Source: Escherichia phage T7
DNA length: 37,752 bases
Sequence record: MZ375255.1
Direction: 5' to 3' (one strand)
Below are positions 1 to 37,752 of the stretch, piece after piece. Each line of letters starts with the position of its first letter. The stretch's first letter is position 1. The position numbers and the translations under genes were made by a program. The notes beneath the pieces are model-generated. The model did no database searches, was not told where the DNA came from, and saw only the letters and a list, made by a program, of their open reading frames with translations.

Positions 1-140
1 TCTCACAGTGTACGGACCTAAAGTTCCCCATAGGGGTACCTAAAGCCCAGCCAATCACCTAAAGTCAACCTTCGGTTGACCTTGAGGGTTCCCTAAGGGT
101 TTGTCTTTGGGTGTTACCTTGAGTGTCTCTCTGTGTCCCT
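1..140 (+). repeat. Left direct terminal repeat (TR), 140 bp, identical to 37613..37752
   Basis: Exact 140-nt identity between window start and end; begins TCTCACAGTGTACGG as in T7 TR. Confidence 0.95.
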
Positions 141-5891: not shown

Positions 5892-6971
5892 ATGATGAAC
5901 ATTAAGACTAACCCGTTTAAAGCCGTGTCTTTCGTAGAGTCTGCCATTAAGAAGGCTCTGGATAACGCTGGGTATCTTATCGCTGAAATCAAGTACGATG
6001 GTGTACGCGGGAACATCTGCGTAGACAATACTGCTAACAGTTACTGGCTCTCTCGTGTATCTAAAACGATTCCGGCACTGGAGCACTTAAACGGGTTTGA
6101 TGTTCGCTGGAAGCGTCTACTGAACGATGACCGTTGCTTCTACAAAGATGGCTTTATGCTTGATGGGGAACTCATGGTCAAGGGCGTAGACTTTAACACA
6201 GGGTCCGGCCTACTGCGTACCAAATGGACTGACACGAAGAACCAAGAGTTCCATGAAGAGTTATTCGTTGAACCAATCCGTAAGAAAGATAAAGTTCCCT
6301 TTAAGCTGCACACTGGACACCTTCACATAAAACTGTACGCTATCCTCCCGCTGCACATCGTGGAGTCTGGAGAAGACTGTGATGTCATGACGTTGCTCAT
6401 GCAGGAACACGTTAAGAACATGCTGCCTCTGCTACAGGAATACTTCCCTGAAATCGAATGGCAAGCGGCTGAATCTTACGAGGTCTACGATATGGTAGAA
6501 CTACAGCAACTGTACGAGCAGAAGCGAGCAGAAGGCCATGAGGGTCTCATTGTGAAAGACCCGATGTGTATCTATAAGCGCGGTAAGAAATCTGGCTGGT
6601 GGAAAATGAAACCTGAGAACGAAGCTGACGGTATCATTCAGGGTCTGGTATGGGGTACAAAAGGTCTGGCTAATGAAGGTAAAGTGATTGGTTTTGAGGT
6701 GCTTCTTGAGAGTGGTCGTTTAGTTAACGCCACGAATATCTCTCGCGCCTTAATGGATGAGTTCACTGAGACAGTAAAAGAGGCCACCCTAAGTCAATGG
6801 GGATTCTTTAGCCCATACGGTATTGGCGACAACGATGCTTGTACTATTAACCCTTACGATGGCTGGGCGTGTCAAATTAGCTACATGGAGGAAACACCTG
6901 ATGGCTCTTTGCGGCACCCATCGTTCGTAATGTTCCGTGGCACCGAGGACAACCCTCAAGAGAAAATGTAA
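5892..6971 (+). CDS. 1.3: ATP-dependent DNA ligase (359 aa)
   Basis: Adenylation motif KYDGVRG near N-terminus; 359 aa. Confidence 0.97.
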   Translation: MMNIKTNPFKAVSFVESAIKKALDNAGYLIAEIKYDGVRGNICVDNTANSYWLSRVSKTIPALEHLNGFDVRWKRLLNDDRCFYKDGFMLDGELMVKGVDFNTGSGLLRTKWTDTKNQEFHEELFVEPIRKKDKVPFKLHTGHLHIKLYAILPLHIVESGEDCDVMTLLMQEHVKNMLPLLQEYFPEIEWQAAESYEVYDMVELQQLYEQKRAEGHEGLIVKDPMCIYKRGKKSGWWKMKPENEADGIIQGLVWGTKGLANEGKVIGFEVLLESGRLVNATNISRALMDEFTETVKEATLSQWGFFSPYGIGDNDACTINPYDGWACQISYMEETPDGSLRHPSFVMFRGTEDNPQEKM

Positions 6972-6976
6972 TCACA

Positions 6977-7010
6977 CTGGCTCACCTTCGGGTGGGCCTT
7001 TCTGCGTTTA
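6977..7010 (+). terminator. Early terminator TE (rho-independent, for E. coli RNAP)
   Basis: GC-rich hairpin ggctcacc-ttcg-ggtgggcc followed by T-rich tract. Confidence 0.85.
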
Positions 7011-7021
7011 TAAGGAGACAC

Positions 7022-7044
7022 TTTTACGACTCACTAAAGGAGGT
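7022..7044 (+). promoter_or_regulatory. T7 promoter phi1.5, with non-native T at -16 and -15
   Basis: TTTTACGACTCACTAAAGGAGGT; -14..+6 match phi1.5, upstream 3 nt replaced at deletion junction. Confidence 0.75.
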
Positions 7045-7051
7045 ACACACC

Positions 7052-7141
7052 ATGATGTACTTAATGCCATTACTCATCGTCATTGTAGGATGCCTTGCGC
7101 TCCACTGTAGCGATGATGATATGCCAGATGGTCACGCTTAA
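7052..7141 (+). CDS. 1.5: Gp1.5 (29 aa)
   Basis: 30-codon ORF with RBS aggagg; stop TAA is start of phi1.6. Confidence 0.75.
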   Translation: MMYLMPLLIVIVGCLALHCSDDDMPDGHA

Positions 7142-7161
7142 TACGACTCACTAAAGGAGAC
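7139..7161 (+). promoter_or_regulatory. T7 promoter phi1.6
   Basis: TAATACGACTCACTAAAGGAGAC. Confidence 0.9.
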
Positions 7162-7166
7162 ACTAT

Positions 7167-7427
7167 ATGTTTCGACTTCATTACAACAAAAGCGTTAAGA
7201 ATTTCACGGTTCGCCGTGCTGACCGTTCAATCGTATGTGCGAGCGAGCGCCGAGCTAAGATACCTCTTATTGGTAACACAGTTCCTTTGGCACCGAGCGT
7301 CCACATCATTATCACCCGTGGTGACTTTGAGAAAGCAATAGACAAGAAACGTCCGGTTCTTAGTGTGGCAGTGACCCGCTTCCCGTTCGTCCGTCTGTTA
7401 CTCAAACGAATCAAGGAGGTGTTCTGA
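7167..7427 (+). CDS. 1.6: Gp1.6 (86 aa)
   Basis: ORF with RBS immediately after phi1.6. Confidence 0.85.
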
Positions 7428-8009
7428 TGGGACTGTTAGATGGTGAAGCCTGGGAAAAAGAAAACCCGCCAGTACAAGCAACTGGGTGTATAGCTTGCTT
7501 AGAGAAAGATGACCGTTATCCACACACCTGTAACAAAGGAGCTAACGATATGACCGAACGTGAACAAGAGATGATCATTAAGTTGATAGACAATAATGAA
7601 GGTCGCCCAGATGATTTGAATGGCTGCGGTATTCTCTGCTCCAATGTCCCTTGCCACCTCTGCCCCGCAAATAACGATCAAAAGATAACCTTAGGTGAAA
7701 TCCGAGCGATGGACCCACGTAAACCACATCTGAATAAACCTGAGGTAACTCCTACAGATGACCAGCCTTCCGCTGAGACAATCGAAGGTGTCACTAAGCC
7801 TTCCCACTACATGCTGTTTGACGACATTGAGGCTATCGAAGTGATTGCTCGTTCAATGACCGTTGAGCAGTTCAAGGGATACTGCTTCGGTAACATCTTA
7901 AAGTACAGACTACGTGCTGGTAAGAAGTCAGAGTTAGCGTACTTAGAGAAAGACCTAGCGAAAGCAGACTTCTATAAAGAACTCTTTGAGAAACATAAGG
8001 ATAAATGTT

Positions 8010-9117: not shown

Positions 9118-9537
9118 GTGGAACTGCGGGAGAAAATCCTTGAGCGAATCAAGGTGACTTCCTCTGGGTGTTGGGAGTGGCAGGGCGCTACGAACAATAA
9201 AGGGTACGGGCAGGTGTGGTGCAGCAATACCGGAAAGGTTGTCTACTGTCATCGCGTAATGTCTAATGCTCCGAAAGGTTCTACCGTCCTGCACTCCTGT
9301 GATAATCCATTATGTTGTAACCCTGAACACCGTTCCATAGGAACTCCAAAAGAGAACTCCACTGACATGGTAAATAAGGGTCGCTCACACAAGGGGTATA
9401 AACTTTCAGACGAAGACGTAATGGCAATCATGGAGTCCAGCGAGTCCAATGTATCCTTAGCTCGCACCTATGGTGTCTCCCAACAGACTATTTGTGATAT
9501 ACGCAAAGGGAGGCGACATGGCAGGTTACGGCGCTAA
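9118..9537 (+). CDS. 2.8: Gp2.8, HNH-motif protein, paralog of gp7.7 (139 aa, GTG start)
   Basis: GTG start directly after 2.5 stop; HSCDNPLCCNPEH motif; clear similarity to 17872..18264. Confidence 0.8.
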   Translation: MELREKILERIKVTSSGCWEWQGATNNKGYGQVWCSNTGKVVYCHRVMSNAPKGSTVLHSCDNPLCCNPEHRSIGTPKENSTDMVNKGRSHKGYKLSDEDVMAIMESSESNVSLARTYGVSQQTICDIRKGRRHGRLRR

Positions 9538-9985: not shown

Positions 9986-10421
9986 ACAACGTGAATCTAC
10001 TGACGCAATCTTTGTTCACTGCTCGGCTACCAAGCCAAGTCAGAATGTTGGTGTCCGTGAGATTCGCCAGTGGCACAAAGAGCAGGGTTGGCTCGATGTG
10101 GGATACCACTTTATCATCAAGCGAGACGGTACTGTGGAGGCAGGACGAGATGAGATGGCTGTAGGCTCTCACGCTAAGGGTTACAACCACAACTCTATCG
10201 GCGTCTGCCTTGTTGGTGGTATCGACGATAAAGGTAAGTTCGACGCTAACTTTACGCCAGCCCAAATGCAATCCCTTCGCTCACTGCTTGTCACACTGCT
10301 GGCTAAGTACGAAGGCGCTGTGCTTCGCGCCCATCATGAGGTGGCGCCGAAGGCTTGCCCTTCGTTCGACCTTAAGCGTTGGTGGGAGAAGAACGAACTG
10401 GTCACTTCTGACCGTGGATAA
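9966..10421 (+). CDS. 3.5: T7 lysozyme (N-acetylmuramoyl-L-alanine amidase; T7 RNAP inhibitor), 151 aa
   Basis: MARVQFKQRESTDAIFVHCSATKPS...; 151 aa. Confidence 0.97.
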   Translation: MARVQFKQRESTDAIFVHCSATKPSQNVGVREIRQWHKEQGWLDVGYHFIIKRDGTVEAGRDEMAVGSHAKGYNHNSIGVCLVGGIDDKGKFDANFTPAQMQSLRSLLVTLLAKYEGAVLRAHHEVAPKACPSFDLKRWWEKNELVTSDRG

Positions 10422-37612: not shown

Positions 37613-37752
37613 TCTCACAGTGTACGGACCTAAAGTTCCCCATAGGGGTACCTAAAGCCCAGCCAATCACCTAAAGTCAACCTTCGGTTGACCTTGAGGG
37701 TTCCCTAAGGGTTTGTCTTTGGGTGTTACCTTGAGTGTCTCTCTGTGTCCCT
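37613..37752 (+). repeat. Right direct terminal repeat (TR), 140 bp, identical to 1..140
   Basis: Exact identity with window positions 1..140. Confidence 0.95.

What the first reader, a model, noticed from the sequence alone, without database searches (positions are those of the whole stretch)
7011..7044. Gene 1.4 precisely absent; junction replaces positions -16 and -15 of promoter phi1.5
TE is followed by taaggagacactttTACGACTCACTAAAGGAGG. The gene 1.4 RBS is still present but leads straight into the phi1.5 core. The promoter now begins TTTTACGAC instead of TAATACGAC, because the native TAA at -17..-15 doubled as the gene 1.4 stop codon. Positions -17 to -13 form the AT-rich recognition element, so phi1.5 strength may be altered.
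Basis: partly seen in the sequence, partly recalled or inferred. Interest (0 to 1): 0.5.

Follow-up and report, generated by a model that had tools for sequence, protein, structure and literature searches.

The report
Engineered T7 gene 1.4 deletion scar
This is a laboratory-made, already published deletion of the small non-essential gene 1.4 from phage T7, whose junction also changes two bases at the upstream edge of the neighbouring promoter phi1.5; it is an ordinary engineering scar, not a new biological feature.

Summary
The window is a complete phage T7 genome of 37,752 bp. It lacks exactly T7 7608-7763, the 156-bp gene 1.4 ORF from ATG through TAA, and the junction lies at window 7024|7025.

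That TAA is also positions -17..-15 of promoter phi1.5. The promoter therefore now reads TTTTACGACTCACTAAAGGAGG: -17 is still T, while -16 and -15 are A>T. The gene 1.4 ribosome-binding site is left with no start codon.

The deletion is engineered, not natural. It has zero junction microhomology and exact ORF boundaries. An identical junction occurs in 63 GenBank records titled "Mutant Escherichia phage T7 clone T7_xxL", from the CRISPR/Cas9 genome-reduction study of Yuan et al. 2022. The window carries the same seven deletions as clone T7_220L.

The promoter effect has not been measured, but it is probably modest.
- In published in-vitro data, each single A>T change keeps about 68% of wild-type activity.
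- The altered site still scores within the range of natural T7 promoters.
- No sequenced clone changed the junction.
- Flanking promoters give redundancy.

Natural relatives (T3, AH67C600_Q5) also lack gene 1.4, but they keep an intact promoter 5' end.

Verdict: already known, low interest.

The parts
5892..6971 (+). Gene 1.3 (ATP-dependent DNA ligase), intact; upstream neighbour of the feature
   Evidence: 359-aa ORF; corresponds to T7 6475-7554 in the alignment and annotation
6979..7010 (+). Early terminator TE for E. coli RNA polymerase: hairpin GGCUCACC-UUCG-GGUGGGCC (6979-6998) followed by UUUCUGCGUUUA
   Evidence: Annotated TE at T7 7588, which is window 7005. RNA fold gives -15.4 kcal/mol, z = -2.7. 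The simple terminator scanner did not call it because the T-run is interrupted
7011..7024 (+). Orphaned gene 1.4 ribosome-binding region TAAGGAGACACTTT (SD AAGGAG at 7012-7017), with no start codon after it
   Evidence: Identical to T7 7594-7607, which precedes the gene 1.4 ATG in the reference
7024..7025 (.). Deletion junction: T7 7607 joined to T7 7764. 156 bp (the gene 1.4 ORF, ATG through TAA) are missing, with 0 bp microhomology
   Evidence: the identical 44-bp junction is present in 63 mutant T7 records
7022..7044 (+). Promoter phi1.5, -17..+6, now TTTTACGACTCACTAAAGGAGGT. +1 = 7039; -16 (7023) and -15 (7024) are A>T; -14..+6 are unchanged
   Evidence: Comparison with the annotated phi1.5 (+1 at T7 7778). 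Position-weight score 22.8 bits against 33.3 for wild type; natural range 20.8-40.2
7052..7141 (+). Gene 1.5 (29 aa), intact. Its TAA stop (7139-7141) is likewise -17..-15 of phi1.6
   Evidence: Corresponds to T7 7791-7880
7139..7161 (+). Promoter phi1.6, unchanged (TAATACGACTCACTAAAGGAGAC, +1 = 7156); a redundant class II promoter 117 bp downstream of phi1.5

Best explanation
The feature is the scar of a designed, scarless CRISPR/Cas9 and homologous-recombination deletion of the whole gene 1.4 ORF. It matches the 'cassette-gene' design of the CiPGr genome-reduction experiment of Yuan et al. 2022. The window is a serially passaged, genome-reduced T7 clone from that lineage. In T7 the gene 1.4 stop codon TAA is also -17..-15 of the class II promoter phi1.5. 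Cutting from ATG through TAA therefore replaced those three bases with the TTT that precedes the gene 1.4 start codon. The net change is A-16T and A-15T, plus a new flank upstream of -17. The gene 1.4 Shine-Dalgarno is left stranded between terminator TE and the promoter. Inferred mechanism: T7 RNA polymerase still recognises the site. The specificity-loop contacts (-12..-5) and the initiation region are untouched, and the -17..-13 element is still all A/T. That element is read through the minor groove, which distinguishes A.T from T.A poorly. Promoter strength is probably reduced modestly, to roughly one third to two thirds of wild type. The phenotypic consequence should be small, because genes 1.5-2 are also transcribed from phi1.1A, phi1.1B and phi1.3 upstream and from phi1.6 117 bp downstream. 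Shown here: the sequence anatomy, the engineered origin, and the persistence of the junction. Inferred: the size of the promoter effect.
For: Anatomy: the gap is exactly 156 bp and equals the annotated CDS 7608-7763, with 0 bp microhomology.
Other deletions in the same genome look designed. Gene 4.7 is removed exactly ATG..TAA. The gene 5.3 and gene 4.3 deletions start exactly at their ATG codons (for 4.3, within the alignment's 3-bp placement ambiguity). The undesigned gene 19.5 deletion, by contrast, is flanked by a 9-bp direct repeat.
Origin: the 44-bp junction is found 100% identical in 63 records. All are 'Mutant Escherichia phage T7 clone T7_xxL' (MZ3752xx/OL9647xx), and no record outside that series has it.
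The early clone T7_10L still has gene 1.4; T7_30L and every junction-bearing record in the series lack it. The window has the same seven deletions as T7_220L.
Promoter effect: A-15 is found in 17/17 and A-16 in 16/17 natural T7 promoters.
Komura et al. 2018 in-vitro data give wild type 142-188 (mean 169), A-15T 115.7 and A-16T 114.5, which is about 68% each. A-16G gives 21.8, so A>T is much milder than A>G at -16. Variants containing TTTT plus further changes still give 15.6-19.6.
The altered site scores 22.8 bits, inside the natural range, and no non-promoter site in T7 exceeds 5 bits.
No reversion or compensatory change at the junction appears in any of the 63 genomes.
Three records match the junction only to +4. 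In the one inspected, T7_260L, phi1.5 and phi1.6 are fused into a single TTTT-type promoter.
Against: The -16T/-15T double substitution was not found in the stored part of the published dataset, neither in the consensus background nor in the phi1.5 (T-2A) background. The effect size is therefore an extrapolation from noisy single-barcode measurements. The CiPGr cassette sequences are in supplementary tables that are not held, so the design was not read directly. The paper's main text never mentions gp1.4 and says likely regulatory elements were not targeted. The 63 clones are related by descent, so the unchanged junction is not 63 independent tests. The exact GenBank record of the window was not identified: no listed record is 37,752 bp, and MZ375255 is absent from the collection.
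Confidence: 0.9

Rival explanations
1. The deletion is spontaneous, of the classical T7 type that arises by slippage or recombination between short direct repeats, and only happens to coincide with the gene 1.4 ORF.
For: T7 does generate such deletions. This same genome has one at T7 39420-39608, flanked by a 9-bp repeat ATAGAGTCA, and an 18-bp terminal-repeat deletion with 5 bp of microhomology.
Against: The gene 1.4 junction has 0 bp of microhomology, and its ends fall exactly on the first base of ATG and the last base of TAA. Gene 4.7 shows the same exact-ORF pattern. The junction occurs only in records from the engineering experiment.
Confidence: 0.03
2. The window is a natural T7 relative that never had gene 1.4.
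For: Natural relatives lacking gene 1.4 exist. In Enterobacteria phage AH67C600_Q5, TE runs straight into TAATACGACTCACTATAGGAGA. In T3, TE is followed by ATTAACCCTCACTAACAGGAGA.
Against: Those phages keep the native promoter 5' end and have no orphan Shine-Dalgarno. They are only about 81-88% identical to the window over this region. Outside the deletions the window is 99.9% or more identical to T7 over most of its length (98.1% in the terminal-repeat/left-end block), and it retains the gene 1.4 SD verbatim.
Confidence: 0.01
3. The two substitutions essentially inactivate phi1.5. The region is then served only by read-through from phi1.1A/1.1B/1.3 and by phi1.6.
For: A at -15 is invariant in all 17 T7 promoters, and the position-weight score falls by about 10 bits. 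Measured variants with TTTT plus one or two further substitutions give only 9-12% of wild type. A 2026 model paper lists TAAT at -17 as a rate-increasing motif.
Against: Each single A>T keeps about 68% of activity. The 9-12% variants carry additional substitutions at -13 or -3. The altered site still scores above natural phi4.7, which has T at -16. In the inspected clone T7_260L, the only copy of the phi1.5/phi1.6 pair is the TTTT form.
Confidence: 0.08
4. The change is functionally neutral or even slightly favourable for phi1.5, because the element stays all A/T and the new upstream flank compensates.
For: No reversion is seen in any of the 63 genomes, which span clones named T7_30L to at least T7_260L. 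Minor-groove read-out tolerates A.T to T.A swaps (established structural knowledge, not tested here). Flank effects at -22..-18 are reported.
Against: Both single substitutions measured below all five wild-type replicates. Natural conservation of A at -16 and -15 is near-absolute.
Confidence: 0.2

Closest known systems
CiPGr genome-reduced T7 mutants (Yuan, Shi, Jiang, Ma, Nucleic Acids Res 2022; GenBank MZ375237-MZ375294 and OL9647xx), e.g. clone T7_220L, MZ375275
   Same: Identical gene 1.4 junction. The same seven deletions are present: genes 0.4-0.6, 1.4, 3.8, 4.3, 4.7, 5.3 and 19.5. The terminal-repeat change, phiOL +1 A>G and phi10 +1 G>T are also shared.
   Different: The window differs from T7_220L by about 20 point substitutions and a few 1-2 bp indels. 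Its own accession was not found in the collection.
Wild-type T7 promoter phi1.5 (class II; +1 at 7778 of NC_001604)
   Same: Positions -14 to +6 are identical, including the specificity-loop target and the AAAGGAGG start region. Gene 1.5 and phi1.6 downstream are the same.
   Different: -16 and -15 are T instead of A. The sequence upstream of -17 is now the gene 1.4 leader (GGAGACAC) instead of the gene 1.4 3' end (TTAACTGG). The promoter's -17 now lies about 12 bp after the TE region (window 7010) instead of about 168 bp.
Natural 1.4-less arrangements in T3 and in Teseptimavirus AH67C600_Q5
   Same: The ligase gene, then TE, then the phi1.5-equivalent promoter, with no gene between them.
   Different: The natural versions keep the native promoter 5' end (TAATACG in AH67C600_Q5, ATTAACC in T3) and have no stranded Shine-Dalgarno. 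They are diverged genomes, not T7.
T7 promoter phi4.7 (CTATTCGACTCACTATAGGAGAT)
   Same: It is the only natural T7 promoter with T at -16, and its leave-one-out score (20.8 bits) is lower than that of the altered phi1.5 (22.8). This shows that a deviant AT-rich element is compatible with being an annotated T7 promoter.
   Different: It retains A at -15 and differs at -17 and -13 instead.

Membership tests
T7 RNA polymerase promoter (23-bp element, -17..+6) | Core recognition sequence -12..-5 (CGACTCAC), read by the specificity loop | tested here: met
   Window 7027-7034 CGACTCAC, identical to wild-type phi1.5
T7 RNA polymerase promoter (23-bp element, -17..+6) | Consensus TAATA at -17..-13 (AT-rich recognition element) | tested here: not met
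   Reads TTTTA, so 3 of 5 positions match. It is still exclusively A/T. Natural promoters have A at -15 in 17/17 and A at -16 in 16/17
T7 RNA polymerase promoter (23-bp element, -17..+6) | Unwinding and initiation region -4..+6 as in class II promoters (TAAAGGAGG) | tested here: met
   Unchanged from the reference phi1.5
T7 RNA polymerase promoter (23-bp element, -17..+6) | Overall score separable from background sequence | tested here: met
   22.8 bits. Natural promoters score 20.8-40.2 (leave-one-out), and no other site in the T7 genome exceeds 5 bits
T7 RNA polymerase promoter (23-bp element, -17..+6) | Initiation by T7 RNA polymerase at +1 | not testable with these tools
   Needs run-off transcription or 5'-end mapping. 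Proxy data exist only for the single substitutions in the consensus background
CiPGr 'cassette-gene' engineered deletion (Yuan et al. 2022) | Deletion boundaries coincide with the whole target ORF and show no repeat-mediated signature | tested here: met
   T7 7608-7763 equals the CDS, with 0 bp microhomology
CiPGr 'cassette-gene' engineered deletion (Yuan et al. 2022) | Same junction present in the deposited mutant clones of that study and absent elsewhere | tested here: met
   63 of 63 junction-bearing records belong to the MZ3752xx/OL9647xx 'Mutant Escherichia phage T7 clone' series
CiPGr 'cassette-gene' engineered deletion (Yuan et al. 2022) | Co-occurrence with other designed deletions of non-essential genes | tested here: met
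   Deletions of genes 3.8, 4.3, 4.7 and 5.3 start or end at ORF landmarks. The full deletion set is identical to clone T7_220L
CiPGr 'cassette-gene' engineered deletion (Yuan et al. 2022) | Junction equals the synthesised 2 x 50-bp homology template for gp1.4 | not testable with these tools
   The cassette sequences are in supplementary tables that are not held
Spontaneous T7 deletion between short direct repeats | Short direct repeat at the two endpoints, one copy retained | tested here: not met
   0 bp at the gene 1.4 junction, against 9 bp at the gene 19.5 deletion in the same genome

The most novel reading that the evidence does not exclude
The TTT-for-TAA replacement measurably weakens phi1.5 in vivo. 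The passaged lineage then carried it for hundreds of transfers because class II transcription is over-provisioned, or because other changes fixed in the same lineage rebalanced transcription. Candidates for such changes are phiOL +1 A>G to consensus, phi10 +1 G>T and RNA polymerase Q184R. If so, these 63 genomes would be an unplanned in-vivo experiment on the AT-rich recognition element and on promoter redundancy in T7.
Probability: 0.12. Interest if true: 0.25.

Novelty: already known. Interest (0 to 1): 0.08.

Why it matters
It matters little for biology. The feature is an engineering scar in a published, deposited mutant. The practical lesson is for phage genome design. In T7, 7 of the 17 phage promoters use the upstream gene's TAA stop codon as positions -17..-15: genes 1.2, 1.4, 1.5, 2, 4.2, 8 and 16. 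A 'delete the ORF from start to stop' rule therefore silently edits a promoter. The main text of the source paper does not mention this for gp1.4. The unchanged junction in all sequenced clones suggests that phi1.5 tolerates the change.

Tried and rejected
1. Searching for gene 1.4 elsewhere in the window (blastn-short, tblastn, shared 12-mers) found only chance matches.
2. The simple terminator scan did not call TE because its T-run is interrupted. I used the annotation and an RNA fold instead.
3. I tried to find the window's own GenBank record. No listed record is 37,752 bp, and MZ375255 is not in the collection. The closest record inspected, T7_220L, differs by about 20 SNPs.
4. A full-text search for accession MZ375233 found no paper. 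The source paper was found by topic search instead.
5. I looked for a direct measurement of the -16T/-15T double mutant. It is absent from the stored part of Komura et al. S2 File. A 2026 preprint that measured all 2-bp variants has no supplement held.
6. I looked for gp1.4 phenotype data in the PhageMaP preprint and in the main text of the CiPGr paper; neither has any. The CiPGr supplementary tables are not held.
7. I considered and rejected a spontaneous deletion, a natural 1.4-less relative, and an assembly artefact. The last is unlikely because 63 separately deposited genomes share the junction.

Full report
**What is in the sequence**

Window 6960-7060 reads ...AAAATGTAATCACACTGGCTCACCTTCGGGTGGGCCTTTCTGCGTTTATAAGGAGACACTTTTACGACTCACTAAAGGAGGTACACACCATGATG.... 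The flanking ORFs are T7 RNA polymerase, DNA ligase, and genes 1.5, 1.6 and 1.7.

A megablast search shows the region is 100% identical to phage T7, but it matches the reference in two pieces. Blastn and MAFFT alignments of the whole window against NC_001604 show that the window is a complete T7 genome, terminal repeat to terminal repeat, shortened by a set of deletions.

One of those deletions is T7 7608-7763, which is 156 bp. That is exactly the annotated gene 1.4 CDS. The junction is window 7024|7025 and cannot be shifted in either direction, so there is no microhomology. Gene 1.4 is not found anywhere else in the window.

**The promoter**

phi1.5 is annotated with +1 at T7 7778. Its -17..-15 (7761-7763, TAA) is therefore the gene 1.4 stop codon. 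After the deletion the promoter reads TTTTACGACTCACTAAAGGAGGT, with +1 at window 7039.
- -17 stays T by coincidence.
- -16 (7023) and -15 (7024) change from A to T.
- -14..+6 are untouched.

The gene 1.4 Shine-Dalgarno region (TAAGGAGACACTTT, 7011-7024) remains but has no start codon after it. The TE hairpin lies at 6979-6998, so -17 of phi1.5 now lies about 12 bp beyond the TE region. Only the end coordinate is one base long.

**Origin**

A 44-bp query centred on the junction cannot seed on wild-type T7. It finds 63 records, all 100% identical across the junction, and all from the series MZ3752xx/OL9647xx. Records from this series that I opened are titled 'Mutant Escherichia phage T7 clone T7_30L / T7_220L / T7_260L...'.

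[quoted passage not shown] Populations were passaged 300-600 times on Cas9 library cells.

The clone named T7_10L still has gene 1.4. T7_30L lacks it, as does every junction-bearing record in the series.

The other deletions in the window fit the same picture.
- Gene 4.7 is removed exactly from ATG to TAA.
- The deletions of genes 5.3 and 4.3 begin exactly at their ATG codons (for 4.3, within the 3-bp ambiguity of the alignment).
- The gene 3.8 deletion has no microhomology.
- The deletions described in the paper as undesigned 'large fragments' are also present: gp0.3-0.6 and gp19.5. The gp19.5 deletion is flanked by a 9-bp direct repeat, which is the signature of a spontaneous event.

The window has the same seven deletions as T7_220L and differs from it by about 20 point changes and a few small indels. 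It is therefore a sibling clone. I could not find its own accession.

**Likely functional consequence (inferred)**

Among the 17 T7 promoters, A at -15 is invariant and A at -16 occurs in 16. The exception is phi4.7, which has T at -16.

A leave-one-out position-weight score drops from 33.3 to 22.8 bits. That is still inside the natural range of 20.8-40.2, and far above any non-promoter site in the genome, none of which exceeds 5 bits.

Komura et al. 2018 (PMC5937735) measured barcoded promoter variants in vitro:

| Variant | Activity (RNA reads / DNA reads) | Relative to WT mean |
|---|---|---|
| Wild type (5 barcodes) | 142-188, mean 169 | 100% |
| A-15T | 115.7 | about 68% |
| A-16T | 114.5 | about 68% |
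| A-16G | 21.8 | about 13% |
| T-2A (the phi1.5-type start region; 2 barcodes) | 161 and 138 | about 82-95% |
| TTTT plus A-13G plus T-2A | 19.6 | about 12% |
| TTTT plus A-13T plus A-3G | 15.6 | about 9% |

The exact double mutant is not in the stored part of the table. A 2026 preprint lists TAAT at -17 as a rate-increasing motif.

These data fit established structural knowledge, which I did not test here. The AT-rich recognition loop reads -17..-13 through the minor groove, where A.T and T.A are hard to tell apart. My estimate is a modest weakening, to roughly a third to two thirds of wild type.

The phenotypic effect should be small. T7 RNA polymerase starting at phi1.1A, phi1.1B and phi1.3 reads through this region, and an intact phi1.6 lies 117 bp downstream.

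Two further observations agree with this. None of the 63 genomes shows any change at the junction. Three records match the junction only to +4; in the one I inspected, T7_260L, phi1.5 and phi1.6 have recombined into a single promoter that keeps the TTTT 5' end. The clones are related by descent, so this is weak evidence, not 63 independent trials.

**Comparison with natural genomes**

Gene 1.4 is absent in T3 and in the natural Teseptimavirus AH67C600_Q5. In both, TE is followed directly by the phi1.5-equivalent promoter with its native 5' end and no stranded Shine-Dalgarno. A TE-promoter adjacency is therefore natural. The orphan SD and the TTT are what mark the window as an engineered product.

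**Verdict**

The finding is real and correctly read, but it is an already published laboratory construct. The promoter change is an unremarked side effect of an ORF-exact deletion design: gp1.4 is not mentioned in the main text of the paper. It illustrates a general design hazard, since 7 of 17 T7 promoters share their -17..-15 with an upstream stop codon. The effect on phi1.5 is unmeasured and probably modest. Interest is low.

Noticed in passing
window 20928 (T7 22904): The +1 base of the strong class III promoter phi10 (major capsid gene) is G>T, giving TAATACGACTCACTATA|TGGAGA. The change is shared by 33 records of the same mutant series and absent from the early clone T7_10L. It would be expected to weaken phi10 or shift its start site.
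   Followed up: partly
window 385 (T7 405): The +1 base of promoter phiOL is A>G, which converts TATAAGGAGA to the consensus TATAGGGAGA. The change is shared by 43 records of the series and absent from T7_10L.
   Followed up: partly
window 3138 (T7 3721): T7 RNA polymerase carries a single amino-acid change, Q184R (CAG>CGG), next to the protease-sensitive K179/K180 region. It is absent from T7_10L.
   Followed up: no
window 29-32 and 96|97; repeated at 37641-37644 and 37708|37709: Both terminal repeats carry the same 18-bp deletion (T7 99-116, GGGTTGGGGATGACCCTT, with 5-bp microhomology) and a CATAG>ATA change at T7 30-34.
   Followed up: no
window 1320|1321, 10513|10514, 12317|12318, 12696|12697, 14844|14845, 37443|37444: There are six further deletions: genes 0.4-0.6 (563 bp, 1-bp microhomology), 3.8 (292 bp), 4.3 (198 bp), 4.7 (408 bp, exact ORF), 5.3 (338 bp, starting at the ATG) and 19.5 (189 bp, 9-bp direct repeat ATAGAGTCA).
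   Followed up: yes
L004 (MZ375283, clone T7_260L) 400-450: In this later clone phi1.5 and phi1.6 are fused into one promoter, TTTTACGACTCACTAAAGGAGACACTATATG, with gene 1.5 lost. The likely cause is recombination between the two near-identical promoter cores. MZ375286 and MZ375290 show the same truncated match to the junction query.
   Followed up: partly
window 9942|9943 (T7 10682) and 9332-9333 (T7 10071-10072): A one-base deletion near the 3' end of gene 3 (endonuclease I) changes its C-terminus (...DRLKGKEERNNGSCTV in the window ORF). It is not present in T7_220L, so it may be a real frameshift or a sequencing or assembly error. There is also a TA>GT change in gene 2.8.
   Followed up: no
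T7 reference L002, all 17 phage promoters: In seven promoters (phi1.3, 1.5, 1.6, 2.5, 4.3, 9 and 17) the TAA at -17..-15 is the stop codon of the upstream gene (1.2, 1.4, 1.5, 2, 4.2, 8 and 16). Any start-to-stop ORF deletion of those genes would edit a promoter.
   Followed up: yes
L006 (MZ833439, phage AH67C600_Q5) 520-590; L007 (T3) 340-400: Natural relatives have no gene 1.4. TE abuts the phi1.5-equivalent promoter directly, which suggests gene 1.4 is an accessory insertion specific to T7 and its closest relatives.
   Followed up: partly
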